A stretch of 64,000 nucleotides of DNA from Callorhinchus milii (GCF_018977255.1 NW_024704746.1:21762001-21826000); one strand, 5' to 3'. Shown: positions 133 to 33,150, numbered from the stretch's first letter. Translations and numbers: made by a program. The notes: a model not told the origin generated them from the letters alone.

Positions 133-263
133 ATTTTCGTGGAGTATTTTGGGGAACTGGAACAAGAAAGTGTACGGGACAATTTTGTTCTGATGTACGA
201 ACTCCTTGATGAGATTATGGACTTTGGCTACCCGCAGTTCACTGAGACTGCCATCCTCCAGGA
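133..263 (+). CDS. mu1-like exon ([44 protein letters not shown])
   Basis: tttag acceptor, GA|gtaggt donor, 131 bp; clathrin adaptor mu signature. Confidence 0.93.
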
Positions 264-3200
264 GTAGGTATACTCAGCTGAACCCTCTCTTTGTAAACAT
301 CGTGTTCCTACCTTGCATCCAATCCTCCCGATTCTCATGAGTTTTTCTTGAATAGTTTTTAAAATTGTCCCTCCATCGTGTTTGATTGCAGCTCTGTAGC
401 CTTCTGTAGTGGACTCTAATGAATGAGGCTTTCGACCTTTATTATCTTCCTTATCCTGTACTGTACGTCTATAAATCACATCTCAAGACACAGTTGGATG
501 TTGGAGGCTCTTTCACCCTTTGTCCCTCATCCTTCCAGAATATTAATCCTATCATCTTCCTATTTCAGCATCAAATGACTGTTTAAAGTAAGTCCAGTAA
601 ACCAGCCTTAACCATCTTTCCTGGTGAACCATTCCAGCTGTTACTTAACCTCTGTGTATATAAATACTTCCTGGAGTGAATCCTAAAATTGGGCTTCGCA
701 ATCCAAGCCTGTGTCCTCTTGACTTGCTGCCTTGAGTTATTTGAAAGTATGTCTGGGTTTACTTTCCCTGTCTGTTAACGACCTTAAATACCTTTATACG
801 GTACATTTTGAGATGTCGTTACGTGTCTGAAGATCCCCAGTTTGTTTGGTTCTCTCTGGTTCATAAAATGAGGATATTTAATTGTAGCAAAGGCGCAACT
901 TGACAGCAGAGCTGAGGCTCTGCAGCATCTGTGCAAAGCCACAGTTAATGAATAATAAAACACATTAGGTCCTCTATTCCCCTGCAGTTATGCATTGCAA
1001 GTAATAAATATATTCCGATCACGCCCCCTGTAGTTTGCAGGATACAATTATTCTGTCGCAATCAGATCACAATGGATTCTCAAACACTGAAGGTATTCAG
1101 CTTAGCTCACGTTAAGGTTTAAAACACTTTAGAAGGCATCACAGCTAAGGCTCGATCCTGTCCTCACTTAGTATTAACAGGTATCTCTGAGACACTATTC
1201 TGTATGAGGGGCGCTATATAAATGCAAATTGTTGTTGTTGCTTCTTTCAGCAGGGATCACAGGGCAATAACCAGAAACAAGAGCCTTGCAGATATTTGCC
1301 TTCATTAATCACAAGGATTATTTGGCCAATTGTAGCACACCCCCAAACCAGCTCAGCCCAGATCAGCTCACTATCCCAGTCCAGGGATCAAGGTTGGGAT
1401 CTCCCCATCCTATCTGTTTCAGCACCACTCCAGGCTATGCATTTACCCACTGAGCCATTGGGAAGATTCCTCCTGCCTTTATTTGAAGACCATCAATTCC
1501 TCTTCCTGGACTCGGGTTAAACAGGGAGACATATTCAGATGGTTTAAGATACAGTGTTAAGGGAAGATGGGGGTTACATATAAATAAATCGTCACAAAAC
1601 AAACAGTAGAAAAGCAAAGGTTTGATCAAAACTAAATAACTGACCAAATATTATAATGAGATACAGGAAAATTTATGTTTTTTTTAAAAAAACCTGTATT
1701 TGAGCAAGGTTGTGCATTTAATCAAACTGGGTTCACGAGCAGATGGAACTGAGCCAGACTGAGAATTGTAGAAGAAATGAGCCAACTGTAACCTTTCTTG
1801 CGACAATAAAATCTTCCCATCTTTTTTATTCTTGTGTCCTGCTTTCCCACAGATACATCACACAGGAAGGTTATAAACTCAAGCAGGGAGCACCCAAGCC
1901 TCCAGCTGCTGTCACCAACGCTGTGTCCTGGAGATCAGAGGGGATCAAGTATCGCAAGAACGAACTCTTCATCGACATTATCGAGTCAATCAACTTCCTG
2001 GTTAGTGAACGCTCTTCAAAGAGAACATCAGAGGTGTACAGGTATTGGCGGTTTCACCCTGTGCCCAGTGCCACCTGACGAATCCTCTCAGCGTTAGTCA
2101 CAGACTAACCCAAACACTCCTATTTTATTACCCCAAAATCTGGCTTTCATTGCCAAAGCAGTGGAAAAATCAGAGAGGAAAACAAAGAGAGAATATAATT
2201 ATCTATCATTCTGACCACACTGTGAATTTTCCACAGGTGAACGCTCAAGGCTGTGTGGTTCACAGTGAGATCCTGGGACACGTATTGATGAACAGTTTGC
2301 TCAGTGGCATGCCTGAAATCAATTTGTGCTTCAATGACAACGCACTTTTCAACCACAGCCAAAGTAAGTGCAAGACATACAAGGGAAAGAGACGGGATGA
2401 GATGCAAAGTTCAGTCAGTGGCCTAAAGAGGGAGGGTTTGCATCTGAATGAAGCTGTTGAGTTTATGTCAAATCGATAATGTTAATCTCGGTTGACTAGA
2501 TTCATTCTCAATGACAAACGGTGGACTTTTGAAGTGACGATGAGGCAACCTGATCTGAATATCCCCTTTAAAATTTTGTGGGCATTTTAAGGCGCTATAT
2601 CAAATGCAAGGATTATTATTATTAATAAATGGGAAGAAAACAACAGAATGTAAATACATATGGAAGTATTCTGACCAGGGTCATAGGTAAAGGAACCAGA
2701 CGTGGCCAATAAAATACGATTAACCTAAAGTAAAATGATTACCTGTGGCCAGTGGAATATCTTGAATTGTGAGTTTAATTTTTGATAATTTAAAAATAAA
2801 GCAAAACACCATCATTGACTCGAAATGTTTCTGAATAAAGTGAACCTGGAACTTCAAAGCCTTGAGTAACGTTGACAATCCTATTCCAAAGTGGGAGACG
2901 CAAACCCTGTGGACTTTGAGGACATCAAGTTCCATTCGTGTGTCCGTCTGTCTCGCTTTGAAAGCGAGCGTGCCATCACGTTCATCCCACCCGACAAGGA
3001 GTTTGAGCTCATGTCGTACCGAGTGACCAGTCGAGTAAGATACCTTTATTAAATCGGTTGCTGTTGTGCTGATCTTGCTGCACCAAAATCTTCCAACACG
3101 CAGTGAGACAGCAACTACTCTCAATGTGATGTTTTTAATCAGAAAGATTCCCCGGGCACGTCTCGCAAGGCACGTCTCAAGACCGTCCTCTTCGACCATG

Positions 3201-6200
3201 CCTTCGGCCACCCCTACCCTCCCTGCCCTCCAGCACTCCCGATCCCAGGCCAACAAAAAGAAATGTTTCTTGATTGAATATTTCTTGATTGATGGCACGA
3301 TTCTATGCTATTTTGTTATTTCTATGATTATTTTGTCGGTCACCAATGTCTTAGATAGAGCCTTCTTACGGGATCTAATGGTTGGATTTGCCTTGTTGGG
3401 ATGGGTTGGTTGGGACCAGGGCTCTTTCACTGGAGTATTCAAAGGAAGAAGCTCATTATTGTGGGTATGTGTTAAATTGACGACTTTACGTTTATCCATC
3501 GCTGCCCCTCCCCACCACCAAATTCTGTAACGCCTGAATTTGAAATCCTTTACTGCACAATATTCCTCGAGAGCAGAATCCGCAACCGAATGGATTAATG
3601 TTTTGAACGGTGAAAATCTCGAACTGTAAATGATCCTGCGATTTACCGTGTCCTCAGGTCAGACCATTTCTCGTGGTGGTTGCAGATGTCCAGAGATATA
3701 TGCACAGTAGAATGGAGATCACGGTCAAGGTAAGGCACGACACCACAATATCTTAAGATTTGGTGCAACATGCTTAGGTTGGAGGTTTCGTCCACAATAT
3801 ATACAGTCACTTTACTTTACAGCATATTCTGTGAAGCTCCATGAGACATCTAGAAGATGTGATAAGGCGCTATACTGAATTCAAAGATTATTATTATTAT
3901 TTATCGTAGGTACATTTGTACAACAGAACCGAAAAGTGAGTCTCAAAGCATTTCTTGCGATTTTTAAATCTGCTCAGAGTCAATAATATAATAAATCCTG
4001 CATTTGACATTCTGCAGCAATTTATTATGTCGTCAAACTGGTTTGCAGGATATACTGTAAAGGGATGTGTGTGACTGTATTTTGTGGGTGAGTTGCCACA
4101 CAACCAGCACTTAGGGATAGGAGGGGGGAGAAGAGAGGAAGAGAGTATAGCATTGTTTGAGGATTGTTGAGGGCTCCACCACTAATTTTTCTCTGCCTCC
4201 TCGTGGAAAAATGACGAGGCTTCCCGCTGGTTGATCTATTAATTGACACAGGATTTAAGAGTGCAGATTATCCCTTTCACTATCTGCCCTTGAAGTTGGT
4301 ACCTCAACGTGGCACAAGGTCGTTCATAATAAAATGAATATTATGAAAACCTTCTATCCTACTCCACGGACACGCTCTCTCCTCGTGCTCTCCAGGGACA
4401 ACAGTAACCACTTTCCTGTAACAATCGCACAAAACAGCCCGAATATTTGCGTTTGATCTCGTGCCCTGTCATGACTGAAGGTCCGGGAGACACTTCATAC
4501 GATGATTTATTTTGACGTGCGTATGACCACCTCATACAATAAAGGGAGATAGATGGCTGGTTGCTTGTATCTGCGCAGGTTAAAGGGCAGTTTAAAGAGC
4601 GCCTCTCCGCTACAAATGTTGTGATCATTGTCCCGGTTCCCAGCGACGCCTCATCTCCCAAATTCAATACCGCTAAAGGACATGTGCAATGGGCGCCAGA
4701 GGAGAGTGCCATCATCTGGTCTATAAACTCCATTCAGGTAAAGCCATGGAAAGATTACGTGTTNGTGTGTGTGTGTGTGTGTTGGTGCGTGTGTCTGTGC
4801 AGCTGTATGTACAGCAACAACAACTTGCTTTTATATTACGCCTCTCAATATACGATAAATGCCTGGAGGAACGTTCCAAAAATAAGATGGATTCAAATTA
4901 TAATAGCAGCAATAATCCTTGCATTTGACACGTCAATGACTAAGTCAATTCTCTTTATATCCCTGTGAAGCCCTTTGAGACGTCTTGAAGACGTGATATT
5001 AAATGCAAGGATTATTATTATTATTACAATATAGCTCTTTAATGAAAAACGTGCAGGAAACGTCCAGTTGTACAATGATCTGTTGAGATCTCCTGTTTTC
5101 CCTCAAGGGCGGAAAGCAATTTGCAATGAAGGCTCACCTGGGGCTGCCCAGTGTACAAGCCGAGGAGCCTGAGGGAAGGCCCCCCATCAGAGTGAAATTC
5201 CAAATCCAATACCTGGCCTCCTCAGGCCTGCAGGTAACAGAGCATCACAACCAACAATCTGCCAACCCCAACGAGTGGAAACCATGGCGCAGTGAGTGGC
5301 CGATAATCAACACAAGCCATTTACATTTAGTGGTTGATTCCCCCCCCCCCCCGCTGAAGCAGACCCTTCTTTTTTGAGGTCGGGGTCACACCCTACAAGA
5401 CAGCTTCTGGGGAGCGTTACATCTCGGCAGCACGTCAGACGCTTTGAACCACGTCAGACGCCCGATATATCACGGTGACACTTTAGAGCGCTTAACAACC
5501 ACAATAACTTACGTTTACATAGTGTCCCTCACGCAGGGCAGAGTCCCTGAGCGCTTAAACAAGTATTGTTCTAAGCTACAGGCCGAGAGTCAAATGTTTC
5601 TTGTTTCTTAGATCAAATATATCCGGATAATTGAAAAGAGCCTCTACAGTGCGGTCTCCTGGGTCAGATCTCTGACACAGAGCGGAGGTAAGAATTAAGT
5701 TTGAAATTCTGCCTGGGTCGAAATTACTCACTTTTCCGTAAAGCATTTTCGAATGTTATTGAGAGGCCCTAATAATAACGTGTGACATCTGGACATGTTA
5801 AATACAACCTCGATTTTTAGAATTTTTTTTAAAGAAAAGGTAAGACTTGCCACTCAATTTGCCCAATTCTGGACCCTGTAAAAGCTACATAAGTTAAGTC
5901 TAGACCCAGGTGGAATCTCTCCCCATCTGTGCCTTTCATTATATGGACTATACTCATCATTTAGAAAGGTTTCTCAGAGCAGCAATGAGCAACTGCAATG
6001 CCTTGTACCACAGAGTAGTGAGAGAAGCATTAAGTGGAACCCAGAGGGTCGAGGAGCACTGAACTGTCAGTCAAACCTTCCCAAGATCCTTCCATTAAAT
6101 CCTTGCATTTGATATAGCGCCTTATGGTGCAATGGCAACACTCGCAAAGCACTGGCTGTGCATCACCGGGGTGGGGGGGGGGGACTAACATTTCAGCACC

Positions 6201-6736
6201 AATTCACATGTCCATTTGTGCATTATTTCCATCAGGCCCAGAAGGGCGCAGCCACAATGACAGGCATGTGTTTTAAAAAATAAAGGTAGTATTGGAGCGG
6301 CGTGTTGATGGGCATTTGATGTTATTCGGTTGCTCAGTAGCTCGAGCCTTCCAGTGAATTGTTCTCAGGATCCCTGAGTTGCCCTTTGCTGGCTCCCGGG
6401 GCAAATCACCTATTGAACAATGGGAATGCTTCTGTTCATAAAAACACAAGAATTTGCTGGCGAAAGAAGACCAAGTTCCATCTAGTTGGCCTTCCACCAT
6501 CCTGGCAGTCGCTTGACACGTCTTGTCCCCAAACTTAATACTTAATACAATATCAGTAATACTGAACAGCTTCAGGAAAGGAGAAAGTAGCACAAGAAGG
6601 CTACCTGGTTAGTGCTGTGCTTTAATGCAGTGAGTACATTAATAATTATTATTATTATTATAATTAATAATTATTATTGAACATAAAATGTGCTATATGT
6701 CAATGTCCCTTTCCAGATTTTCAGATCCGGATTTAG
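133..6736 (+). CDS. AP-1 complex subunit mu1-family protein (AP1M1/AP1M2/ap1m3-like), 5'-partial, divergent paralogue; 9 coding exons in window
   Basis: Exons 133-263, 1853-2000, 2237-2363, 2892-3034, 3658-3729, 4579-4737, 5108-5233, 5612-5687, 6717-6736 have AG/GT borders and join in one open frame. Motifs: [105 protein letters not shown]. Exact orthology unresolved. Confidence 0.93.
1853..2000 (+). CDS. mu1-like exon ([49 protein letters not shown])
   Basis: cccacag acceptor, gttagt donor, 148 bp; linker Thr and FxD of the YxxPhi pocket. Confidence 0.95.
2237..2363 (+). CDS. mu1-like exon ([42 protein letters not shown])
   Basis: ccacag acceptor, gtaagt donor, 127 bp; LSGMPE motif. Confidence 0.93.
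2892..3034 (+). CDS. mu1-like exon ([47 protein letters not shown])
   Basis: aag acceptor, gtaaga donor, 143 bp; FHxCV and FIPPD motifs. Confidence 0.92.
3658..3729 (+). CDS. mu1-like exon ([24 protein letters not shown])
   Basis: cctcag acceptor, gtaagg donor, 72 bp, phase 0-0. Confidence 0.88.
4579..4737 (+). CDS. mu1-like exon ([29 protein letters not shown]...IIWSINSIQ)
   Basis: gcgcag acceptor, gtaaag donor, 159 bp. Confidence 0.93.
5108..5233 (+). CDS. mu1-like exon ([42 protein letters not shown])
   Basis: ctcaag acceptor, gtaaca donor, 126 bp. Confidence 0.93.
5612..5687 (+). CDS. mu1-like exon ([25 protein letters not shown])
   Basis: tcttag acceptor, gtaaga donor, 76 bp; WVR of the Tyr pocket. 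Confidence 0.92.
6380..6610 (-). mobile_element. CR1-like LINE 3' UTR relic
   Basis: aagaatttgctggcgaaagaagacc...catctag...ccttccaccatcctggcagt is shared with 18660-18830 and, inverted, with 7540-7680. Confidence 0.55.
6717..6736 (+). CDS. mu1-like terminal coding exon (DFQIRI*)
   Basis: ccctttccag acceptor; completes the G|AT codon; matches the mu1 C-terminus DYQLRT; TAG stop. Confidence 0.85.
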
Positions 6737-8480: not shown

Positions 8481-11400
8481 CTGAAAAATAAAGAGTGGGG
8501 AAAAAGTTTGTTAGGAAATATTAACGACAATCAAACAGATAAGAGTTATAATAATAATATTAATCCTTGCATTTGATATCGCGCCTTATCACGTCTCTGA
8601 AACTTCAGAGCGCTTCACAGGATAGACTGTAAATACTATATAGCCTGTGGGCAAAACGCGGCAGCCAATTGCGCACAGCAGCGTCTCCGCAAACAGTCGT
8701 GCTTTGAAGTGACCAAATTGTCACTTTTTAATAAGTCAACGCTCGGAGTTAACCCTTCAGAGCGGTGACCGCCGCACGGTAGCGTGAAGTGTTTTGCAGT
8801 GCGGGTACCTTAGTCGACCGGGTTTTGCTGAAAACGTTCCAGAACCGCAATGTTTCGTCCCCCGCTCCTGTTACGATGGCCTCTCCGTCGGGTGATATGG
8901 CCTGAGGGGGCGAGAGGGAATTTTAAAATGTTACAACACGCTCGACCAGAAAAAGAGGTGTCTTTCTGGATGCCTCACCTCTCGTCTAAGCAAAATGGAT
9001 TTGAGTGAAAGGTTTTGAGTAAAAACAACACAACCAAAGCCCCAGTGTGGAGTTAACTCAACTGCCGGAGTGACACACCATCGGCCTTCAATGGCCCAGC
9101 TGTCCTCTACCACCCCCTGCCCCCCCCACCCCAAAAGGTGCAGCAGTGAGCAGGTTTCAGGCTCTACTGCCGACACCCATTCCTCTGTCGTCTCTCAAAA
9201 TCCAGAGTGATCAACAAGGACACCTGGAATACACACACACACACACACGCACACACAGGGTGACCAAAAAGTCGCAATACCATTACAATGTACAAGGTAT
9301 AATAAGTCTTAAAAATGATGATATTTGTTTTTTTAGGTAGGGGAGATATCATGACTTTTTGGTCTACACACACATATATACATACATATATTTATGCATA
9401 AACAATGGTTGTGTGTGCGCGTGAGAGAGAGAGAGAGAGACACAGACAGACAAGACGGGGTAGATGATAAAAACAGGAGTTTTTACAAAGTGCAAAGTGA
9501 GAGCCATCTGCTGGCTGATCAAAGGCAGCACCGACACACTTCACCTCCGGCCAGACACTCCGCAGAGTGTCCGAGGCTTAATCCTTTCACAGAGAGAATG
9601 GCTACTGGCCCCTTTAAAAGGCCGGTCCGTAGGTAGCCCCGTCTTTACACCCGACGCCACAGCCAAACCGCTCACCAGGTAGAGGACTCTGTATGAATGA
9701 CCTGTCAGTTTGGCAACTTGTGTTAACGATGGGTATTTCCACACCAGGATCTGATTCTGCGAGTAGCCGTGCGTGCTGACCTGGGGAGCAAAAGGAAATC
9801 CCGTCACAGAACAGCAAACTCCCAAGGATTATTCATCGTCCTTATTATAATAATAACAATCCTTGCATTTGCTACAGCGCCTTATCACGTCTTCGAGACG
9901 TCTCAAAGCGCTTCACAGGCTAGACTGTAAAGTGTAGTGACTGTATACATTGTGGGCGGCCAATCGCGCCCAGCGGCGTCCCCCCCCACAAACGGCCGTG
10001 GAGACTGAAGTGACCGAATTGTTATTACATTTTGTTTGAAGGGATGATGACAGGACGAATTGTGGGGCTCACCAGCTCGTTTGCGTGCTTGGACCAGGCC
10101 AGGTTGCAGACTTGTGAGCCGGTGTCCACACACTGTAAAGGCTGACACGTCAGGGTGTTGGAAAAGCGGATGCAGCGATCGGCCGTGCCCCCACCCGAGG
10201 CCAGCAGCCCGTGCTGGTGGGGGGACCAGGCAATGGCCTTGACAGCAGCTAAATGTTCTGTGTACTGCTGCACCGGGCTCAGGCTCGAGTTGTTCCACAC
10301 AAAGAGCTGCGGGAGGAAAGAAAGATGGCGTGAGAGGGAGGCTTTTCCTGTCTACGTGGGGAAGAGGAGTGGGGGCGAGGGTGCAGGTGGGGGGCTGTGG
10401 AAACAGACCATGGAGTTCTACATCATCACAAAGTGCTGACGGAGGCAAAATAAAATACCACGACTCACGAGGTGACCAAAAAGTTCCATAATTTCCCCCC
10501 CGCAAAAAAAATCATCATTTCTTTGATAAGACTTGTTAGAGATTGTAATGGTATCATAACTCCCTGGTTACCCTGTATGTGGCAACCCTCACTTGGTGGA
10601 AACGGATTCAATAACAACTCTCAAAAGGGAAGTGGGTAGGAGGACTTGAAGAGGAAACATTTGCAAAGATTTGGGGAAAGAGCAGGGGCAGTGGGACTGA
10701 TCAGGAAGCTCTTCCAAAGAGATGGCACTGGCACGATGGGCCGAATGGCCTCCTTTTGTGCTGCAATATTCTGTTGTTCCATGAAGATGGTTTGAGCTTC
10801 TTGAAGCGCCTCGCCTCTCTCTGCCCGAGCTCTGATGTCTGACCTGGCTGCTACACGTGGGTCCCTGGGGGTGGGTGGGGATGTGTGTGGAGTGTGGCGT
10901 GTGGAGGGGGTGGTGGGGGAGTGAGGATTGACCCCTGGGGGGAGGGTACCTTGTTGTCGTTGCCCCCGGACGCCAGATGCTGGTGGTCGGGTGACCACTT
11001 TAGACCACAGACTTCCTGCCTGTGACCCTGCAGTCTCCGCTCGCTCTGGAGTGGGGGAGTTCGCACGTCCCTCTGCAGGATGAGCCGGTCCCGACTTCCC
11101 GATGACAGCTGATCAGCGTTCCAGGCCAACGCACCTGTGGATCGCGATCACAGAGATTACAGCAATGGGAGGAGGCCTTCAGCCTCTACCCCCCCCACTC
11201 GCGCCCCCAGCCCCACCCCGAGCCCCTGCCCCTAACCCCCACCCCGAGCCCCAGCCCCTAACCCCCAGCCCCCGGTACGATTTGCCTTCAAACTCACCGA
11301 CTCGAGCCGAATGTCCATCGAGTGAGGTCAGCTTCTTGCCTGCAGCCGCATCCCAAATCTGCACGTAACCTTTGTGGGTTCCCACAGCCACGAAATTGCC

Positions 11401-14400
11401 CTGAACGGGGAAAATAACCCCCCGCTTGTTAAAAAAATGTCTCGCAGGACGGGACTGTTCAATCACTTTGCTCCCCCCAGCCCACCCTTAAAGGACACAT
11501 AACTTGTCCCCACCCACACACACACAGCCCCACCACCGCTGGCAGACAGACCGCAGGGGCCTTGGCTAAGAGAGCGAAGGGCAGGTGACCGTGAGCACAA
11601 TTCAAAAGGAAGGTTTTCAGGCGGGGAAGGGAGGAGGGAGTGGGTAGGGCGGGGGCAGAGCAGAGGGATTGAGTGACGTAGAGGATCTCGCTGAGTCTCG
11701 GCAAAGAAAACTCACTCGCTCGTTCCAGCAGACAGAAGTAACTGAGTCGCCATCTATGGACAAGTCGCACAGCCTCGTTACCTGGAAAACAAGCGCACAA
11801 ACAACCTCAAGGGAAAATATACATCGACATTTGACCTAAAGCCAACCTAAGGGAACTCAAGACCAAAGCGTATTTGTGAACTATTCGGCTCACACGCCAC
11901 GCAGTCAATTCACTTCACAGTATATTCTCTGAAGTGCTTTGAGACGTCTGAACGATGCAATAAGACGCTATATTAAATGAGAGAGAGAGAGAGATGGAAT
12001 AGAAAGGAGATCAGATAAAGCTGGATCAGCTCCTGGAATTGGATCTGGCACCAGATGAAGCTGCTTTGCTCTCTTCAATATTCTTAAGAGCTTTACAGGA
12101 ACACGTTGGAGCGACAAGCTTCGATCTTAAGTTTGATCTATCCCAGCACCTCGGGACTTACGCCCTCGAGACGTGAAAAGCGCTATACAAATATAGTTTG
12201 TTGTTGTTGTTTGTTGTCGCTGTGCAAAAATTAATGGGGCAGTTAAGGAGGAGTGCAGCAGGACTGAATGGGGGGAAAAAAGAAAGGAGAAAGAAACTGA
12301 ACGACGAGTGGTGAAGCGAAGGCGGAGGGTTTCGCTGCCAGCCAGAAGGTGGGCGTGAGGTCCTCTCTGCCCCTTACCTGACTGGTGCATGCGCTCCACA
12401 GGTAAACGCAGGCTCCGAGGCCCACGCTCAGGACGTTGGCTGCCGACCAGTCCACCAGGTTCAGGTAAAAGTCGTCCTGCAGCTCTGGGGCGTCCAGGAC
12501 TTTGAAGGGAATCTTGGAAATCTTCCTTGTGGGTTTGCGTGGCGATCGCAGCAACTTTTGACTGCCCGAGCGGAGAGAAAGCAAAGGCTTGGGTTATTGG
12601 TGGATCGGGGCGTAGCGGGTGAGGCCTAGTGTTAGTCGATTGGCGGATTGTTTCCGGGGGTAGGAATCCCTCACAACAAAATATATATATATATGTGTAT
12701 GTATTTGGTCACTCAAATCCACGACTGTTTGTGGGACGCTGCTGTGTGCAATTGGCTGCCGCGTTTTGCCCAGAAAATACAGTCAATTCACTTTACAGTA
12801 TATCCTGGGTTGAGCTCCGAGACATCTAAGGCGCTATATCAAATGCAAGGATTATTATTAATTTTACTATTATTATTAGTGCAGGTGGAGTGTAGGAATG
12901 TAGCAATGCACACAAAACAGCTAAATCACAGAGAAAGCGACACTTTAACCTAAGCCCTTTGTCTAGAGGACTTTCATTTTTTTATATAATATATATATCT
13001 TTTTGCATATATATACGTATATATATATGCATACATATATATACACACACACAAAAAGATAAAAATTAACAAAGGTTTTATCCTGAATATGGAATAACTG
13101 TTGAATTACCTTTTATTGCTGACTGGGGACAGTGAATATGGAGAGATTTCATTCCCACTTTCAATGGTAGATCTCTTTGTGCTCAAGGCATACTGCAGAC
13201 AAACCAAAACAGAGGTCTGTTAGTATTCACTGTTACAACATGACAGACTGCAAACCGGTGTTATTAGTGGCCACTTCGTTAGTTGACGTGAGAACTTACT
13301 CTGAACAGATTGCGTCTCTCCTGCATCGGCATCTGGAATCTCCGATCTTCTGTCTGAGGATCACTGACCTTTTCAATGCCCGCACCCAGGAGCTCGTTCT
13401 TTAGTAAAGCAGCGTAGGCCACTCCATCTGCCATTGGGAAGGAACACATTCCATCAGCATAGCGGAGAGTGGAGAGACCAGGGAATAAACAAGGTACGTA
13501 CTGTGGAGGGAGATGTGCTGGTGACTCCGGGACTGTGCAAATTGGCTTCCAGTAAAAGTCACTGCGCACACACACACACACACACAAGTCATCTCACAAA
13601 TGCTCCTGAGAAAGATGTACAGGTGCTTCACTAGATGGCAGGTCGTGCTCCACCACTGCCAAGCTATATAAATTCAACTTGTTGTTGCTGTTGACCTCGC
13701 CAGACTTCCAGTGCCACCCTGATACACAACCAAAGGGAGATGCCAATCACCTGTGAGAGAGAAAGCTTCACTAATGTGAAGCAACACACTTCGCTCTCCC
13801 GACCACACCAGGAGCACGCGACTGGCAGACAGCGCTGGGACTCTGCAATGTGACCTACTGCCATCATTAAGGCTTAGCTGTTTGGACGAGCTAACTATTT
13901 AAGCCACAGCTGAGACTTCGTGCTGCAGAGATAAAGACGACACTTAAACCACCGTCTTTTGGGAATGTTTGACCGTTCAGTGTTGGATGGGACAACCAAG
14001 TACCTTAACGTGATTATTAGAACGGTCAGCTTCAAACAAGAGAAGAATCACCAGCGCGGATTTGAGTCTGAACAGCCGGGTTGCTTTACTCTGTGACATT
14101 CTCTGGTTCAATGACAGGTGAGTCAGACAGTTACTGTACCTTTCCCATTGTCGGAATTGGCCTCTTTCACTTTGCGGTTCTGGTTGGGGGATTTTCCGTT
14201 CTCCTGCGAATGAGCAAAAACATACAGCAGGACGGAGATTCCTCCTTTAACGTTGCCACGTATCATGATAAATAATCCTTACATACAGCAAAAGTTTACA
14301 TTCGTAGAAGAGCCTCAAAGTGCTTCGCAGGATACGCTGTAAAGTGGATATATCTAACCCACTGAAAAGAATACATCCAGCCAGCGTTTGTCTGCAAAAT

Positions 14401-16193
14401 ATGCAGTCACTACACTTTACAATGTATCCTAGTATTCACTAGTATGAATAGTGGGCAGTCTGGAGATTGTCAGGTGCTTAACCGAGAGGCTCTTGTGCCA
14501 ATGTTTTTACGTTCCTTCTGATCTTGTACGAAGGCTATTGCTATATCTGGGATCCCGAGTCAAGCCCGCTCTGTAAATGCAAGTTGTCGTTGCTGTTAGA
14601 TGTGCACAACCATCAACGACAGCTGCACCATCTGTTGTACGGGTGGAGTAACGCTGGCATGCAAGTACACACAAGTCTCAGCCACCTGAGCAGGTGGAGA
14701 GAGCAGCAAGCGAAACGCCTGCAGCCACTGAAACCTCCGGTAAATAAGCCCTCCAGGTCGGACACAAAACTGCTGACATGGCCTCGATGCGCAGAGCTCC
14801 TCCCTTCCTCTGTAACCTGCTAACCTCATACCGGCCTGTCCCCCTCTCTCCCTCCCTCCTCTCCACGTCCCCCGCCCTGCCAGCCCGTCCGTCCCATCAG
14901 CGGTAGTCCTCGGCTATCCAGCGCTTTGGAGACGTCCTTCCGACCGTGAAAGCTATCAAACGAATGTAAGTTGTCCTCGTTATTTATTGTTGTTGCAATG
15001 CAGTGTCGGCTTACGTTAATGGTGTGAAAGTTGATGCTCCAGTTGGAACTTGCCCTGGTCGGAATAAACCTGTCGCCCGTCTTGCGAGGAATGGTTGCCG
15101 GTGAGGTGGAAGATACGGGCTGCGGGTTTAAGGCAGACTGCAACGCCACATGCGCAGAAAAATACAAGGTTCGGGTTAGAAACCGTTTGGAAAATAACAG
15201 TCGACAGTCAGTAATAAAAGGTAATAAATAACGATAACATGAATCGAACAGTCAGGCTATTTCAGTTAATGTTAGTATTTTGTGAAGTGCAGTGCAGAAA
15301 GCAAGTTTACAGATTGGTCTTTTTTTCTTACCCCCCAAACACCCCCCCACAAAGACATTACAAGCTCAGGTTGGTGGCATGAAAGGCTTTTTATTTAAAC
15401 TCAGATCGCAAGGCGAGTTTTTGAGAAGTGAAATCTATCCTATCACTCCAATAGTGTAAATGCTGTGTAAATGCAAGTTGTTGTTTGCAAGTGGACTGCA
15501 CCATCCGCACAGACACGAGCGCAGGTAAACCCACCTCTGCTTGCTCACCAATCGCCTCGTTTGGTCTAAAGCAATGGAAATCGGCTTAAAAAAAATACTT
15601 TCAACCTTGTATATTGGTAGACAACACATCGGTGCCTCAGACAGAAACATGCACTTCATCAAATGCACCTTTCTGCTCAGCTTTAAGCTGGTCCAGTGAG
15701 TTATTCCACCAGATACTGAATGCTGTCAATATGTTCCCAGTTCTACTGTCAATACGAACACTATTAGGATCAGTGCAAGAAGCGGTACACCGGAATCATC
15801 TTGCAAAAAACCCTTTTTGTAAAAAAAAATCTTAAAACAAAGTCTTAATTCAAAATAAAAATCGACGCAAGGGTTTGCACTGAGCCGAGAGGACAAAGCA
15901 CACTTGAACCGCTTTGATGAGCAGCCCAGGGAAATTGGAGGCTTATTCCACGCTATTCTGGTCTTGCTGTAGATGGGAACGCAGTTGATATGAAGCTCGT
16001 GTTATGCTTCACATCAGTCCCGGCCACCGTTGGAAGGTGAGCCCCTACAATCAAAACTGTCGCTGGTTCTGTGGCACGAGGGCACGAACCGGATGGAGAG
16101 TCTCGCAGCTTCACTTACCGGGGAAAGCATATTTTCAGAGACGTTTTGGAAGTGCGTTTGCCAAAGCAGCCTCCGTTCGTACTCTTGGTCCAT
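8439..16193 (-). CDS. FZR1: Fizzy-related protein (Cdh1/FZR1-like APC/C co-activator), complete, 13 coding exons, 494 aa
   Basis: Exons 16119-16193, 15015-15137, 14140-14203, 13300-13427, 13110-13192, 12378-12561, 11716-11781, 11298-11400, 10950-11134, 10073-10306, 9676-9780, 8809-8901, 8439-8480 total 1485 nt, open. [10 protein letters not shown] start, C-box DRFIPTR, KLLR motif, WD40 repeats, IR tail (FTRIR*). May be a paralogue rather than the 1:1 orthologue. Confidence 0.95.
8809..8901 (-). CDS. FZR1: FZR1-like exon ([31 protein letters not shown])
   Basis: AG/GT borders, 93 bp, last WD40 repeat. Confidence 0.95.
9676..9780 (-). CDS. FZR1: FZR1-like exon ([35 protein letters not shown])
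   Basis: AG/GT borders, 105 bp; includes the RVL cyclin-binding motif. Confidence 0.95.
10073..10306 (-). CDS. FZR1: FZR1-like exon ([51 protein letters not shown]...HANEL)
   Basis: AG/GT borders, 234 bp, WD40. Confidence 0.95.
10950..11134 (-). CDS. FZR1: FZR1-like exon ([16 protein letters not shown]...LASGGNDNK)
   Basis: AG/GT borders, 185 bp, WD40. Confidence 0.95.
11298..11400 (-). CDS. FZR1: FZR1-like exon ([34 protein letters not shown])
   Basis: AG/GT borders, 103 bp. Confidence 0.95.
11716..11781 (-). CDS. FZR1: FZR1-like exon ([22 protein letters not shown])
   Basis: AG/GT borders, 66 bp. Confidence 0.94.
12378..12561 (-). CDS. FZR1: FZR1-like exon ([39 protein letters not shown]...CTSQ)
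   Basis: AG/GT borders, 184 bp; KLLR motif and LDAP-DDFYLN signature. Confidence 0.96.
13110..13192 (-). CDS. FZR1: FZR1-like exon ([27 protein letters not shown])
   Basis: ctgcag acceptor, gtaatt donor, 83 bp. Confidence 0.92.
13300..13427 (-). CDS. FZR1: FZR1-like exon ([42 protein letters not shown])
   Basis: AG/GT borders, 128 bp. Confidence 0.94.
14140..14203 (-). CDS. FZR1: FZR1-like exon ([21 protein letters not shown])
   Basis: AG/GT borders, 64 bp. Confidence 0.92.
15015..15137 (-). CDS. FZR1: FZR1-like exon with C-box ([41 protein letters not shown])
   Basis: ttgcag acceptor, gtaagc donor, 123 bp. Confidence 0.9.
16119..16193 (-). CDS. FZR1: FZR1-like first coding exon ([25 protein letters not shown])
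   Basis: GCCATGG Kozak context; acceptor near 16211 implies upstream non-coding exon(s); gtaagt donor. Confidence 0.93.
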
Positions 16194-17277
16194 GGCTTCA
16201 CGGCCCTGTTCTAAGGACACCAATCGAGCGGGGAATAAGCAGCCCTGGAGCGTGAGCGACGTTGTCAGTCACTGAAGGTATCCAGGTCCCCGTCAGTGCT
16301 GCAGCCTCTCCTCACTCGCATTCCTGCAACAGCAAACCCAATTCAACAGTGTGTCCGATTGACATTGATCAGAAAACTGGGAACATCCAACTCCCTTCGT
16401 ACAAAACGTACGCTTATTGCAAAAAGAACACGTCGGGAGGATATCTCAAGGCCCGCAGGACTGATGCACATAGAGAGTTTCATTCATCCCAGTTCTTGAT
16501 TCAGGTGGAAATACCACTGCACACACCCCCCTCGCCATGTGAATAGGATCCTGGATAAGGCGGAAGGCCTTCTAAACTGTTGTGCAGTGCGAGAAATAAC
16601 AAGAATGATCATCCTTTGAATTTGCACCTCTCATCTGCCTCCTCCTCCCCACCACCACACACCCTCACACCCCCAAACCCCCACGACACACACCCTCACA
16701 CCCCCACCCACCCACACACCCTCACACTGATCCCTTGCAATAGTACAAGAGAGTTCTCAACTCCCAGTTCCGGCAATGGGAATTACATCATGCTCAAAGG
16801 GGTCCTGAGTGGTCTTGCGTTTCCAGCTTCTCTCACCAGTTATTGGCTGTGGTTTCAGGGCTCAAATGCCCTTTAATAGCCTTAGTTTAAGCTCTTAATG
16901 AATCCATTATGATTAACGGAGTGGGGGGGGGGGTTCCTCGTGTCTTTAATTTGAAGATTTGTCTGATCCGGTAATTAGCTCCCAGAGGAACAACCTTCCC
17001 CAAACCCAATTCCCCACAGCTCTGTGCTCTACTCCCCTGATCCCCCCCCCCCACTGCCCCCCCCACCTGAATGGGAAGCTGTGCAAGAACGCCTGGAGAA
17101 AACAAAGCAGAAAAAGAACGAACCTTGAGCTGCTCAGAAAACAAACAGTTGAACAATCTCGCTTTGTTCCTCACTGAATGTTCCGAAGTAAACTTTATCA
17201 TGAAGATAAGTGACCTGGAACCTGGCAGCGCCGGGTTACAGGGGCTTTTCTTTTTCTTCCTCCAGATTCTCTAAATC

Positions 17278-26328: not shown

Positions 26329-29300
26329 CTGAAAATTAAATAAAAGAGGTTACAGCCCAGGTCACACATTTTGACTAGAATGGACGATGATGCTTTAGTC
26401 CGACCACAATGGTATACAGGAGCTGTGGTTTGCACAGCACATCAAAAAAACACCTGCATTTACAGAACTCTGGCCTTCTCAACAATATTGAAGAGCAAAA
26501 CGGATTCAAAGAAACTGCTGTAATTTGAGTCTAGACATAACTTAAGGTTTTAATAATAATAATCCTTGCATTTGATATAGTGCTTTTCACGTCTTCTAGA
26601 CGTCCCAAAGCGTTTCACAGAATATACTGTAAAGTGAATTGACTGTATATTTGTGGGCGAACGCGGAAGCCAATTGCGCACAGCAATGTCCCACAAACAG
26701 TCGTAGATTGAAAATGACCAATTTATTATTGTTTTTGTTTTGGAGGGATTATTATTAGGCTCTGTGTGGAGTAAGGAAACTTGCCCAAGGTTTCGCCCTC
26801 TGCCTGGAATTGAACTCAGGTCTCTCACTTGCAAAGCGAGTGCTCTAACCACTGAGCTACAGGACTCCTGTACTGGTGCAATAAGTGCCTCTCGGCTACT
26901 TATAAACCTTTTAAAAAAGGAGATGGTGGAAAAAGTTTGGAACAGTGACTCAATCAATCCCAAAGAGAACTTTCTCCTGATGTACCTGTTCAAAAACATC
27001 TAACCAGACATCATATAGTACTTGTGAATGTTTTACACAATCTACAGTTGATGAAGCAAAAGAAAGTTAGGCTTTAGAAATCAAACTAAATTACAGAAAT
27101 TAAGGCCAATCAAATAAGAATTCGGTGAGTTTCTGTTATTTGGACAAGAGGGAAATGTTTTATACCATTGAGCTGAATACCATCAGCTGAAGCTATGTCA
27201 GGGGATCCTAAGTGCAACCGGAATCAGACAACATTCATCCCATACCTCAGTAAGATCAATGAATGAGGCAAGTCATTATTATTATTATTATATTATTATT
27301 ATCAAGGATTATTATTATTATTAGAAGTCATCTGACCAGAATTGGGAAGCCCTGATCTGTACCATTATTAACCTTTAACTCTCTTACTCTGAGGGAATTT
27401 TGNTTTTTAATCAATACTCACATTTGCATTAATCTTTCCCTTTCCCCCTTTTCCAAAATTCTTGTTTTTGGAATGAGCAACTTTGGACCTGAAGCTGGAG
27501 ACGTCATCGTAACTGTCTTTGGTGTTCCACTTTAAGCCTCGCTTCTTTCCGCCAAAGCCAAACTTTTCGTTTTTGTGTTTCCTCTTAGCGTTTATTCTGG
27601 AGAGAAAAAGAAAAAAAAGAAAACAAGAGGTTACAATGCGATGAGACCTCACTGTGCCCAGGGAACCACTCACACCTGCTTAACTGCTTATGCCAATCTG
27701 CCCGCTGCAAATACACAACACAAGAAAAAAGGACTTGAAATTGATTGGGAATATATACTTCTCACTGATCAGAATGATTTTCGGATGCCTTCCTACTAAA
27801 CAGTGCGTGAAGTGACTTCAAATGTGTTGCATCGTCTTTTCCAAGTTGCTACACAATACCCTTTTTAAAAAATCTTAAGGGGGTGCAGTTCTAGGTCATA
27901 AAGACCAGAAGTTGTAGGTCTGAATCTCAGTCTACGCGTTGCCAGCTAGTCTCAACCAAAGCAGCAGTTGGGCTGTTACAATTGGCCTCAGGGTCAGAGG
28001 GAGGGATGGAAAAGTATATATAAAAAAAATCGGCAAAGGTTTGCACTCTCAATCTGATCAAATACTTTGCACTCACTGTCAAGGCACAACTTGGGCGAGA
28101 CATTGGAAGACATCACCCCAGGAGAAGAAAAATTTAGAATACATTTCTGTGAAACAAGAACATGCTTTCAAGCACCCGCTCCCTCCCCCCCAGACACACT
28201 CCTCCTCCTTCTCGAGATAACGCTTCATCACTGTGGCCCAATACATCAGTGTTCCTGGTAATAACCCCTGTAGGGGATTATCCAACTGTAACAAGTTCCC
28301 AGCATGGAGTGAGTATAACATTGCTGTAGTAAACCAAATCGCTCACCCTTTCTTCTTGTGTTGCCCACCTCCACCTCCAGATCCTCCACCGCCAGCTTCT
28401 TTCTGCCCTTTGGAGGGAGCCCTGTCACCCTCCAGGAAATCCAATTTGTCAGAAAGCCCTGAAGAGAAGAAAGCAATTAGTCAAAATAAAAACCAGTGTC
28501 AGAGACCTTCTAGTCAGAGAGCAAGTAGCAAGTGAAAGCAATGGGATCAGGATACAATCTCGTCTTTGGAAATGCCAATAAAACATCGCAGACCTTTCTG
28601 GTACTTCTTTACAGCTGTCAGCATTGCTTTCTTTTCTTTCTGTCGCTTCTGAATAACTTCCACTTGCACCTAGAATCAAAAGTACATCGAGATTTCAAAA
28701 AAATACATACATTTGGAGTCAATTTCCCCCTGTGTAGCCAGCGGAGAAAAAAAAGTACACTGTAAACAAGTTGCTACACAAAAAATTATTGGTGTTGGAC
28801 AGAAAAGTCTTACCTTCTTGCCATATTTTCTCAATGCTCGGAGCTGTTTAGCCTTTTCAGATTTTTCCATGGCAATCTGCTTTACCATTAGCTTTTGTCT
28901 AACCTAATAAAAGCATAGACACATTTNAAAAAAAAGCAACACGAAGCAGCACTCTAAAGAATCCTTCCTTAAGAGTCCCCCACGGCCCACTTGAAGCTTT
29001 TACTTCAGACACAGAACAGAGAAATCGATCATGAAATCCTATCACGCAACCCATATTAGACTAGACAGACGAGAGGTTCTCCATTGGAAACCAAGTCACA
29101 AAAGTAATCCAGTCTGTAAGTGCAAATAAACACTTTATCTTTTGGGTCAATTAAATTAAGTAAGGCAACTAACTCTCTTTTGAGAGGAAAAACAAATAAC
29201 CACTTGCCTTGTGCATTTGCTGGTCGGATTTTGCCATCTCTGCAAAGTAGTCTTCTGGTCTTTGTGTTGCAACTTTCAGACTATGTAGTTTAGGCAATGC

Positions 29301-32300
29301 CTTCAACACAGTCGCTTGTGCCTGGCGGTAACTGAAGACGGAAAATAAAAATGCCAAGTTAAAAAAAAAACATTTTTTTGGGGGCAGTGCAGAGATTTCT
29401 TAATCTTCCCAAATAGCTACCCAACTTGAGAGGCTACAGTGCTGAAAGTGGAAGAAGACCACTAAGAAATCCGGGAAGTGGGGAAGAGGAGAACGAGAAA
29501 GGAAGAGAAAATAATATAATTGGAAGTCTTACATATCTAAAATATTAGGATCTCAGGTTTTGGTATTCGATTCTAAAGTGCAATCCAAAACAAGTGGCGC
29601 TAACTAATAACCATAGAAGACAAACAAAAGCCAGAAAAACAATAACTCCATCATGTATATTTAACTTTTTTGCAAAATTTCTTTGTGGAGTGTTTTGGAA
29701 AGGTGGATCAGGTGACTTTTTCTTAAAAGAGTCTCTTTCCATTTAGAATGTTTTATTCTGTGTGCATCTATTTTTTTTGTAATGCCGCAATGCATTTTAA
29801 ACTGTGGTAAAGTTTCATAAATATGATCAGACAGCACTCACTTGGGAAAGCAAATAAATAAACGGTTTCCTACGCAATTTGAAGGGGATACGTACAAATA
29901 CATCTCGCGCTGAAAGTCATCTTCTACGTTGATCTCTGAGTTTTCCGCTTCTGTGGACTTTCCTTCAGCTTTTGCTACAATGTCTGCAGCTGGGCCATTA
30001 GTCATGTCCAGCCTCTCCACCCACGGCAGGTCTTTCTTGAAGTTTGCTAAGCACCTCGCCATTCCCTCCTATAGATATAAAACCTACATTAATGACCCTG
30101 TTCTACGCAGCTCTTATTTTAATGACAGGAAATAAAGATCCTTGTGAGGAAAACATGAGATCCTGATAGTTACTCGACAGCATTCAACTCAGTTCAACCA
30201 CAACAAATTACATTTATATATAACAATCGTTGCATTTGATATGGTTACTTTTCAAGTCTTCGAGACGTCTCAAAGCTCTTCAAAGGATATACTGTAAAGT
30301 GAACTGACTGTATACTTAGTGGGCGAAAAGCACCTTTCACGTCAGAAGGATCTTGAACAATTGTGCTATTATTTGGGAACGAGGGGAACAATATTATTTG
30401 GGAATAATATCTTGTTAAGAAGAGCCTGGGAGAAACGTTTTATTTAACAACCTGGAAACCAAAACGTTTTAGTTTTATTTTTCAAACCAAGAAGAAATAT
30501 TTCCTGTTGATACTTGATCGCTGGCATTCTGTTTAAAAACATTGTGGAGTCCTGTAGCTCAGTGGTTAGAGCACTCGCTTTGCAAGTGAGAGACCTGAGT
30601 TCAATTCCAGGCAGAGGGCGAAACCTTGGGCAAGTTTCCTTACTCCACACAGAGCCTAATAATAATCCCTCCAAAACCACAAACAATAATAAATTGGTCA
30701 TTTTCAATCTACGACTGTTTGTGGGACATTGCTGTGCGCAATTGGCTGCCGCGTTCGCCCACAAATATACAGTCGATTCACTTTACAGTGTGTTCTGTGA
30801 AGCACTTTGGGACGTCCTCCCGACGTGAAAAGCGCTATATCAAATGCAAGGATTATTATTATTATTATTGTGATCGGGGGCAAAATAAACTGATCAGCTT
30901 CAGTAGCATAGGGAGCACATTATCAAGCAGATAATTACAGTGGAGATATGATGGACAGAACAGGGTCTGTACTAATTTGCTCCAAACAACTCCTCAGTTG
31001 AGAAAATCTAACATCATCTTTCCATAAAAGGAGAAGAAACTCACCACATCATTTGGACATTTTTTCTTTGCTTCCAGCACAACATTTAAACCAGGCTTGA
31101 GTAAACCCTTTGCGAATGCCTCTTGAAGCTGAAAATAAAATACAACATTAATATTTGAAAAGTGAAACACAGTCATCTTTGTACCAGAGGCGTGAAAACT
31201 GAAACATCACCAGACCATTTAGTCTTAAACTTCCTTTAGATTTTTAAACAAGGATGAACGACAGTCTTGATTGCCTAAAGAGCTTAACGCTATTAGTGTC
31301 TTATTTTGAATGAATGCTCCATGTTCACAAATGTCTCATTGAACAGTATCACGAGCAGTTTTCTCTCCCTCCGTCCCACCTCAAACTCCAGGGTGTTAAA
31401 TTCCTAATTCCAGCCATCCTGGCCCATCAGAAGCACTTGGAGGGGGCTGAACAGTCACTAGAGGGAAGGGGGTGGGAGGTCAGCGATCCTGTTAACCCTG
31501 TGATCAGGGTAGCAAAGTCCCAATTTTGTTGTAACGCACAGCACGGGGGGGGGGGGGGTCGACAAGCGAGTGGAATACGGTAGTTTTCAAGAGGGAACCA
31601 GACAGATATCTTAAAAAAGGAATACAGTAAAACTCGCATAAGTCTGACCTGCATAAACCGTATAATCGTCCAGTCGTTACATCTACTCAGGTGCCCTGGA
31701 ATTTCCTACTATTTGTACATTTCACATAAGGAATCCGGAATGGGGGCATAATCTTAAAATTATAGCTCAGCCATTCAGGAGTGGAATCACCCAAAAGGGA
31801 GTGGAAATTTGGAACTCTCTCCCCCCAAAAAAGGCTGTGGATTATGGCTGAATCCATTCACATCCTCAAGACTGAGGGGGAGAGGGATTTGTCAGGTCAG
31901 GGTGTCAAGGGACATGGGGCAAAGGCGGGTAATTCCTTGAAAAAAAAAGTAATAATAAATTGGTCGCTCAATCCACGACTGTTTGTGGGACGCTGCCGTG
32001 TGCAATTGGCGGCTGAGTTTTGCCCACAAAATACACAGTCACTACACTTTACAGGACATTCTGTTAAACGCTTTGAGACGTCTCGAAGATGTGATAAGGC
32101 GCGATGTCAAATGGAAGGATTATTAAGCATTATTATAAATTGGACTTGAGGTACAGATCAGACGTGATCTTATAGAATGGCGGAACAGGCTCGAGGGGCT
32201 GAATGGCCTCCTCCTGTTTCTATGTAACTCATACTTTACACATAAGTCAAATTAACGGTGCGGTCCCAACTGATATGACTTGTGTGAGAGGGAACGAGAC

Positions 32301-32896: not shown

Positions 32897-32989
32897 ACTG
32901 TAGCTGTGGCTATGGCTGTGGCTATGGCTGAGGCTGTAGCTATGGCTGTAGCTGCCGCTGTCGCCGCCGCGCGCTCTCGGCCGAGCGTG

Positions 32990-33150
32990 TGAGTGAGAGA
33001 GAGGCTGAGGGGCGGAAGCGGAAACCAGGCCGGTGGGGGGCGGGGCGGGTCCGCCACCAAATCCCGTCCGGACTCCACACCCCTCCCCCCCTCCCCCCAA
33101 CAGCGGAAAGAGCGTCACAAAGGTTCCGGGCGCAGTGACCCGCAGTCAAA
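32990..33150 (-). promoter_or_regulatory. EBNA1BP2 CpG-island housekeeping promoter
   Basis: Tandem ETS/GABP-type CGGAAGCGGAA (~33013-33023), GC box GGGGCGGGGCGGG (~33037-33049), further CGGAA/TTCCGG sites, CpG-rich. Confidence 0.6.

What the first reader, a model, noticed from the sequence alone, without database searches (positions are those of the whole stretch)
133..6736. Intact but fast-evolving extra AP-1 mu1 subunit with a remodelled cargo-binding domain
Seen: nine exons, all in frame with canonical splice sites, so the gene looks functional. Knowledge: vertebrate mu1A and mu1B are highly conserved. Against recalled human mu1A, exon 3658-3729 matches only about 7 of 24 residues. Normally conserved positions are changed: SGMPELRLGLND becomes [12 protein letters not shown] (loses the basic residue equivalent to mu2 K203, which contacts the YxxPhi tyrosine); PPDGEF becomes PPDKEF; KFEIPYF becomes KFQIQYL; GYQALPWVRY becomes [10 protein letters not shown]. 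The FxD and WxR core of the pocket and the linker Thr (VTNAVSWR) are kept. Inference: a tissue-specific AP-1 variant with altered sorting-signal specificity, possibly undescribed.
Basis: partly seen in the sequence, partly recalled or inferred. Interest (0 to 1): 0.72.

Follow-up and report, generated by a model that had tools for sequence, protein, structure and literature searches.

The report
Shark-only fourth AP-1 mu1 subunit
Chimaeras, sharks and rays carry an intact, spliced fourth copy of the AP-1 protein-sorting subunit mu1, found here in no bony vertebrate, whose cargo-gripping half has been rewritten while its assembly half has not, so it likely sorts a different set of membrane proteins.

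Summary
The nine exons are exons 4-12 of an intact 12-exon, 421-aa gene; the model equals the database protein 'AP-1 mu-1-like' NP_001279627.1, and all 8 joins are spliced in one run. It is not AP1M1, AP1M2 or ap1m3, which are separate genes. Orthologues occur in 22 named cartilaginous fishes (78-83% identical); canonical mu1 proteins are only 57-61% identical. Change is concentrated in the cargo domain: 42 of 175 invariant sites are lost there against 6 of 62 in the N-domain (p=0.017), and the cargo domain evolves 2.6-3.7 times faster than in paralogues. F172, D174, W408, R410 and T154 are kept in 17 of 17. Changed are the K203-equivalent, the Y-2 pocket (N308, E381, P383) and several basic residues. 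One correction: the K203-equivalent is R201 (here N), not the R in ELRLG. AU tests mostly reject an origin from a chondrichthyan paralogue, so it is likely an older duplicate lost in bony vertebrates. Binding, AP-1 assembly and tissue are untested. No paper found in my searches. New variant of a known kind.

The parts
133..263 (+). coding exon 4 (end of the N-terminal longin-like domain); exons 1-3 lie 1.9-4.3 kb upstream of the window
   Evidence: join 263-1853 spliced in X4
1853..2000 (+). exon 5: linker with T154-equivalent (1914-1916), F172 (1968-1970) and D174 (1974-1976), all kept in 17 of 17 orthologues
2237..2363 (+). exon 6: K199, R201 (mu2 K203 equivalent; N at 2291-2293), R211 and K217 all non-basic
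2892..3034 (+). exon 7: K227/K229 loop mostly non-basic; G260K (2996-2998) in 17 of 17
3658..3729 (+). exon 8: most divergent exon, 7 of 24 identical to AP1M1 but 71% to the white shark orthologue
4579..4737 (+). exon 9: R303 to E (4597-4599) in the acidic-cluster basic patch; N308T (4612-4614) in the Y-2 pocket; K333 and K346 lost
5108..5233 (+). exon 10: E381 to Q/K, P383Q, F385L, T386A (5201-5218), the Y-2 pocket strand
5612..5687 (+). exon 11: W408 (5660-5662) and R410 (5666-5668) kept; V392I, L395V/I, P407S, Y411C/S changed
6717..6736 (+). exon 12 coding part and stop; a spliced contig continues to 7022 (3' UTR)

Best explanation
This is an intact fourth vertebrate mu1 adaptin gene found across cartilaginous fishes; it likely arose by duplication before the shark/bony-fish split, likely still builds into the AP-1 complex through its conserved N-domain, and likely sorts a changed set of tyrosine-signal cargo through its remodelled C-domain. 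Shown: intact gene, splicing, a chondrichthyan-wide clade, a long stem followed by slower change, and domain-biased divergence. Inferred mechanism: the N-domain binds beta1 as in AP-1; the T154 phospho-switch is kept; F172/D174/W408/R410 still take a Tyr, probably more weakly because one H-bond donor (R201) is gone. The Phi pocket is re-lined (V171L, L173M/I, V392I, L395V/I, P407S), the YxYxxPhi side pocket is rewritten (N308T, E381K/Q, P383Q), and 5 fewer basic residues lower acidic-cluster or lipid binding. Restricted expression, perhaps in the germ line, is a guess.
For: Gene model equals P0004. All 8 GT..AG joins of the window are in contigs of run X4. Orthologues in 22 named chondrichthyan species, 78-83% identical to P0004 (17-row subset), with the next hits at 57-61%. 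Of 428 retrieved proteins, 49 carry 18-24 of 24 diagnostic residues (all named chondrichthyan except unnamed P0002) and the other 379 carry at most 7. Invariant sites lost in all 17 orthologues: C-domain 42 of 175, N-domain 6 of 62, Fisher p=0.017; 20 C-domain sites are fixed at a new residue. Chimaera-elasmobranch distance: N-domain 0.25 against 0.21 and 0.20 for ap1m3 and ap1m2; C-domain 0.385 against 0.105 and 0.148; stem 0.5 (N) and 0.9 (C). pN 0.25 against pS 0.85 versus AP1M1. Pocket residues come from PMC2133128, PMC4018625 and PMC5584140, passages read. AU tests reject nesting in chondrichthyan AP1M1 (p 0.005-0.04) and AP1M2 (0.002-0.014) and give 0.028-0.051 for ap1m3 on the whole protein. 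It lies on the same chromosome as ap1m3 in 13 of 13 informative species (equal contig lengths). Its neighbour EBNA1BP2 and ap1m3's neighbours CFAP57/TMEM125/C1orf210 are adjacent in pig, which points to a local duplication. The fold model's best hit is AP-1 mu1, 4p6z_M.
Against: No binding or assembly test was run. Keeping all four core pocket residues is only weakly informative: 98 of 175 invariant C-domain sites are kept anyway, so p is about 0.10. The C-domain still evolves fast within sharks, which also fits relaxed constraint. [quoted passage not shown] The tree cannot name the sister group: 11 of 16 placements are not rejected under C20; single-domain tests do not reject M3chond (C-domain, p=0.12) or M1chond (N-domain, p=0.10); long branches drift rootward. 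The model is poor at residues 400-421 (pLDDT under 50), so pocket geometry is not modelled. Absence from bony vertebrates rests on two top-120 hit lists and one top-150 list, not on genome searches.
Confidence: 0.55

Rival explanations
1. Relaxed, scaffold-only mu1: it stabilises AP-1 so that gamma/sigma dileucine sorting and coat assembly work in some cell type, while its cargo domain drifts under weak constraint with no new specificity.
For: C-domain crown rate 2.6-3.7 times that of paralogues; basic residues lost to varied neutral residues; pocket-dead mu1A rescues knockout cells; core-pocket retention not significant (p about 0.10).
Against: 20 C-domain sites are fixed at a new residue across chimaera, sharks and rays, including G260K, N308T, P383Q and P407S; R303E is in 15 of 17; surface D174 and R410 are invariant in 17 of 17; the stem is more than twice the chimaera-elasmobranch distance.
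Confidence: 0.27
2. Same function as in the best explanation, but a younger origin: a tandem copy of ap1m3 (or a transposed AP1M1) made in the chondrichthyan stem, with the signal erased by a burst of change; nothing was lost in bony fishes.
For: Restricted to Chondrichthyes; linked to ap1m3 in 13 of 13 species; the M3chond placement is borderline (p=0.051 under C20).
Against: It keeps the invertebrate state at 24-25 of 66-68 sites where ap1m3 is derived and shares only 9; AU p is 0.03-0.04 in three of four whole-protein tests.
Confidence: 0.3
3. Stand-alone or dominant-negative mu protein acting outside AP-1, as stonins and muniscins use a mu homology domain.
For: RefSeq models lacking exons 2-3 (the longin core) exist in chimaera, two skates and a stingray.
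Against: The N-domain is as constrained as in ap1m2 and ap1m3; the same skip is annotated for ap1m3; T154 is kept.
Confidence: 0.08
4. Pseudogene, mis-annotation or ordinary orthologue.
For: One orthologue (Scyliorhinus torazame XP_072366957.1) is flagged LOW QUALITY.
Against: Open frame in 22 species, spliced contigs, pN far below pS, and separate AP1M1, AP1M2 and ap1m3.
Confidence: 0.02

Closest known systems
mu1A / AP1M1 (PDB 4hmy_M, 4p6z_M)
   Same: Best sequence and fold match (E 2e-179); same 12-exon plan; T154, F172, D174, W408, R410 kept.
   Different: 60% identical (C-domain 57%), whereas chimaera AP1M1 is 98% identical to opossum AP1M1. R201, R211, K199, K217, K333, K346, N308, E381, P383, G260, P407 and Y411 changed. 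Different chromosome (AP1M1 is beside FAM32A on C21).
mu1C / ap1m3 (zebrafish; named in PMC10138411, passage read)
   Same: A fish-retained extra mu1; same chromosome, 1.8 Mb away in this genome.
   Different: A separate gene between TMEM125 and C1orf210, 57% identical; ap1m3 keeps a canonical cargo domain and occurs in bony fishes.
mu1B / AP1M2
   Same: Precedent for a cell-type-specific mu1 that makes an AP-1 variant (PMC10138411).
   Different: mu1B keeps the whole Tyr pocket; chondrichthyan AP1M2 is a separate clade, 58% identical.
mu3A/B (AP3M1/2)
   Same: Also lacks a basic residue at the K203 and R211 positions; matches this protein at L214F, P383Q, F385L and T386A, has a basic residue at 381, and L at 390.
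   Different: Far more distant overall (E 6e-50). Overall matching to mu3 (12 of 38) is not significantly above mu2 (7 of 33), p=0.42.

Membership tests
AP-complex medium (mu) subunits | N-terminal longin-like domain plus C-terminal mu homology domain | tested here: met
   PF00928 E 1e-79 at 156-421; weak longin/PF01217 hits below the cut-off; Foldseek to AP-1 and AP-2 mu chains
AP-1 mu1 subfamily | Closer to mu1 than to mu2, mu3 or mu4; mu1 exon plan | tested here: met
   600 bits against 330 (mu2), 174 (mu3), 145 (mu4); 12 exons matching AP1M1 and ap1m3
AP-1 mu1 subfamily | Linker Thr (T154) phospho-switch | tested here: met
   17 of 17 orthologues; phosphorylation itself not tested
AP-1 mu1 subfamily | Complete Tyr pocket (mu2 F174, D176, K203, W421, R423) | tested here: not met
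   4 of 5 kept; the K203-equivalent is N in 16 and T in 1 of 17. mu3 also lacks it, so this lowers 'canonical mu1', not 'binds tyrosine signals'
AP-1 mu1 subfamily | YxYxxPhi side pocket N308/E381/P383/Y384 | tested here: not met
   N308T and P383Q fixed, E381 never kept, Y384 in 15 of 17
AP-1 mu1 subfamily | Acidic-cluster patch K274/K298/K302/R303/R304 | tested here: inconclusive
   K298 and K302 kept in 17 of 17; 303 is E in 15 of 17; 274 and 304 mostly basic; 303 and 304 also vary in mu1B and mu1C
AP-1 mu1 subfamily | Assembles with beta1/gamma1/sigma1 and binds YxxPhi cargo | not testable with these tools
   No full-length beta1 was in hand and peptides are too short for the complex tool
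AP1M1, AP1M2 or ap1m3 orthologue | Groups inside that clade and is the species' only copy | tested here: not met
   Own clade with support 100; this species has all three others

The most novel reading that the evidence does not exclude
An ancient jawed-vertebrate fourth mu1 gene, lost in all bony vertebrates, that puts an AP-3-like cargo face on an AP-1 chassis: a tissue-restricted hybrid adaptor recruiting lysosome-related-organelle-type or non-canonical tyrosine signals into clathrin/AP-1 carriers in cartilaginous fishes.
Probability: 0.15. Interest if true: 0.68.

Novelty: new variant of a known kind. Interest (0 to 1): 0.44.

Why it matters
mu1 is among the most conserved trafficking proteins: 175 C-domain sites are invariant from coral to mammals in my 42-row set. 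A natural version that kept the assembly domain but rewrote 42 of those sites, and has been kept across chimaeras, sharks and rays, is a ready-made test of which mu1 surfaces set cargo choice and why they are otherwise frozen. That question is open, since pocket mutants rescue mu1A knockout cells. It also revises the vertebrate mu1 count from three to four. The impact is limited to membrane-traffic evolution and shark biology, and databases already hold the protein under a generic name.

Tried and rejected
Expression breadth: no RNA holder was listed on record. I laid 4 of the 14 listed runs (X4, X6, X7, X8; one study; RNA status is a guess). AP1M1 joins appeared in 4 of 4 runs; this gene's full set of joins appeared in 1 of 4, one join in X7 and none in X6 or X8. 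Contigs show presence, not absence or level, and the runs were picked with this gene, so this is a hint of restriction and is not counted as evidence. Tissue of the named cDNA record AFK11264.1 was not found: the supplements of PMC3466250 are unreadable .rtf files and the main-text passages do not name it; those supplements may bear on tissue. My first idea, a simple derived copy of ap1m3, was weakened by site patterns and AU tests. A lamprey orthologue (P0037 shares 7 of 37 lamprey-only states) was neither favoured nor rejected (p 0.11-0.27). Convergence on mu3 was noticed after the fact and is not significant overall (p=0.42). The first fold, on 12 rows, failed (pLDDT 48.7); the second reached 67.7. 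A look for a dedicated extra large subunit (8 of the Adaptin_N loci read by eye) showed none, but was not thorough. Orthologue dN/dS could not be computed, as no orthologue DNA was available. Rows dropped before counts: P0063 (pig, an AP1M1/AP1M2 chimera), P0238 (aberrant C-terminus), and P0123, P0124, P0274 (partial AP1M2 named mu-1). No elasmobranch AP1M1 was in the tree. The cross-flank BLAST was swamped by repeats and not used. Two structure papers were not held, so roles for R211/R225 and mu3 pocket details are not cited. No complex prediction was run.

Full report
Observation. The nine exons are real, bounded by AG/GT and in frame. Three further exons lie 1.9-4.3 kb upstream of the window. 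The 12-exon model translates to 421 aa and equals P0004, which the sources name 'AP-1 complex subunit mu-1-like [Callorhinchus milii]', NP_001279627.1 / AFK11264.1. Contigs of run X4 cross all 8 introns of the window at GT..AG. The Pfam scan of the genome showed no second copy that could explain the joins as a retrocopy (lower-bound search). Correction: in the PDB alignment mu2 K203 pairs with mu1A R201 and with N200 here; the R of ELRLG is R211 (mu2 K213). Both are lost.

It is an extra gene. The genome holds AP1M1 (C21:4.44 Mb, beside FAM32A), ap1m3 (C5:19.95 Mb, between TMEM125 and C1orf210) and this gene (C5:21.76 Mb). AP1M2 exists for the species as protein P0205 but has no matching locus in this assembly (best identity 87%). 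Identity of this protein to the three is 60.5, 57.2 and 57.6%.

Distribution. Orthologues were retrieved for 22 named chondrichthyan species, covering chimaera, sharks, skates and rays. In the 17 used for counts, identity to P0004 is 78-83%. With a profile of 12 orthologues, the list drops from 788 bits (last clade member) to 671, and everything below is canonical mu1 at 61% or less (best 120 of 3602 listed). Scoring all 428 retrieved proteins on 24 diagnostic residues: 49 have 18-24 and 379 have 7 or fewer. The 49 are named chondrichthyan except unnamed P0002, which clusters with skates. This is no proof of absence in bony vertebrates, whose genomes I could not search.

Rate. The clade has support 100 and a stem of 0.94 substitutions per site in the free tree, 0.70-0.73 on fixed trees. 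Between chimaera and elasmobranchs the N-domain distance is 0.25 (ap1m3 0.21, ap1m2 0.20) and the C-domain distance is 0.385 (0.105, 0.148). Of sites at least 95% invariant in 42 canonical mu1 proteins, 42 of 175 in the C-domain and 6 of 62 in the N-domain are lost in all 17 orthologues (p=0.017), and 20 C-domain sites are fixed at a new residue. Against AP1M1, pN is 0.25 and pS 0.85, saturated. The pattern is a burst on the stem, normal constraint on the assembly domain, and looser but real constraint on the cargo domain.

Cargo surface. PMC2133128 (passages) lists the mu2 Tyr pocket as F174, W421, R423, D176, K203 and the Phi pocket as L173, L175, V401, L404, V422, K420. Here the equivalents of F174, D176, W421 and R423 are kept in 17 of 17 and K203 in 0 of 17; the Phi pocket reads V171L, L173M/I, V392I, L395V/I, P407S, with V409 kept in 16 of 17. 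PMC4018625 (passages) shows BST2 Y6 held by mu1 N308, E381, P383 and Y384; three of these four are changed in every orthologue. PMC5584140 (abstract and passages) defines the acidic-cluster patch; R303 is E in 15 of 17, while K298 and K302 are kept. C-domain K+R averages 32.8 against 35.8-38 in other groups. T154 is kept. Against over-reading: 98 of 175 invariant sites are kept anyway, so keeping four pocket residues has p about 0.10, and the same paper reports full knockout rescue by pocket mutants. The strand 381-390 and position 214 match mu3, a lead noticed after the fact and not significant overall (12 of 38 against 7 of 33 for mu2, p=0.42). The AlphaFold model (pLDDT 67.7, pTM 0.40) matches AP-1 mu1 best (C-domain TM 0.82 to 4emz_A) but is unreliable at 400-421.

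Origin. Placing the clade on 16 branches (LG, C20-PMSF) and on 10 branches without invertebrates rejects nesting in chondrichthyan AP1M1 (p 0.005, 0.029, 0.032, 0.041) and AP1M2 (0.002, 0.014, 0.002, 0.014), and is borderline for ap1m3 (0.030, 0.051, 0.028, 0.039). Deeper positions cannot be told apart, single-domain tests are weaker, and long branches drift rootward. It keeps the invertebrate state at 24-25 of 66-68 ap1m3-derived sites and shares 9. It shares a chromosome with ap1m3 in 13 of 13 informative species (equal contig lengths). Its flank has IPO13-like, TMEM53-like, ZYG11-like, FZR1-like, EBNA1BP2, LURAP1 and POMGNT1-like genes (Pfam; gene symbols recalled). In pig the order is TIE1, C1orf210, TMEM125, CFAP57, EBNA1BP2 (PMC12189728 table; the same cluster in human, PMC7756535). 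Here EBNA1BP2 is two genes from this gene and CFAP57 (identified by recall from translation) is two from ap1m3. If the mammalian adjacency is ancestral, the two mu1 genes once lay four genes apart. Best reading: a local duplication near the genome doublings, lost in bony vertebrates (about 0.6-0.65); otherwise a chondrichthyan-stem duplication (about 0.3). An AP1M1 ohnologue is not excluded, since FZR1 and EPS15-family pairs link C5 and C21.

Mechanism. Most likely (0.55) a specialised mu1 that enters AP-1 and reads an altered set of tyrosine signals. The main rival (0.27) is a scaffold subunit under relaxed cargo constraint. Assembly, binding and tissue are inferred, not shown.

Novelty. Paper searches (listings only) found no description; one search returned 0 papers and one unrelated. 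PMC10138411 (passages) names three zebrafish mu1 genes. The library lacks most subscription papers, including the zebrafish mu1 study, which I did not see. Earlier scan notes: none. Verdict: real, intact, database-annotated under a generic name but apparently undescribed; new variant of a known kind; interest 0.44.

Noticed in passing
window 9544-16268 (-): FZR1/Cdh1-like gene (CDC20/Fizzy WD40); one exon is 95% identical to a second copy on C21:6.30 Mb, so this genome keeps two FZR1 paralogues.
   Followed up: partly
window about 27400-33100 (-): EBNA1BP2 (Ebp2 hits at 28550-30068); here not adjacent to CFAP57 as in mammals, implying a rearrangement breakpoint.
   Followed up: partly
L026:2715-3515 and L027:7619-8416: Two TMEM53-like (DUF829) copies about 5 kb apart, 97% identical over 1.26 kb: recent tandem duplication or assembly artefact.
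   Followed up: partly
G000 whole assembly: No locus matches this species' AP1M2 protein P0205 above 87%; the gene is probably missing from the assembly.
   Followed up: partly
P0005, P0006, P0011-P0013, P0015, P0244, P0255: RefSeq isoforms skipping exons 2-3 or exon 10 (the E381/P383 strand) recur in chimaera, skates, a shark and a stingray; the exon 2-3 skip is also annotated for ap1m3. Not seen among the joins listed.
   Followed up: partly
P0037 (Lampetra planeri): This lamprey mu1 shares ap1m3-type states (D226, Y270, H303) that ap1m2 lacks, although it branches outside ap1m2+ap1m3.
   Followed up: no
P0063: The pig 'mu-1 isoform 2' record is an AP1M1 N-half joined to an AP1M2 C-half; several shark AP1M2 records are misnamed mu-1.
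   Followed up: partly
window 4659: The only coding difference listed in X4 is a synonymous C>T in a Pro codon.
   Followed up: no
L049:2118-2348 and L049:6791-L050:3138: A PQ-loop (cystinosin-like) gene and a RING-B-box-PRY/SPRY TRIM gene sit between paralemmin and FAM32A-AP1M1 on C21.
   Followed up: no
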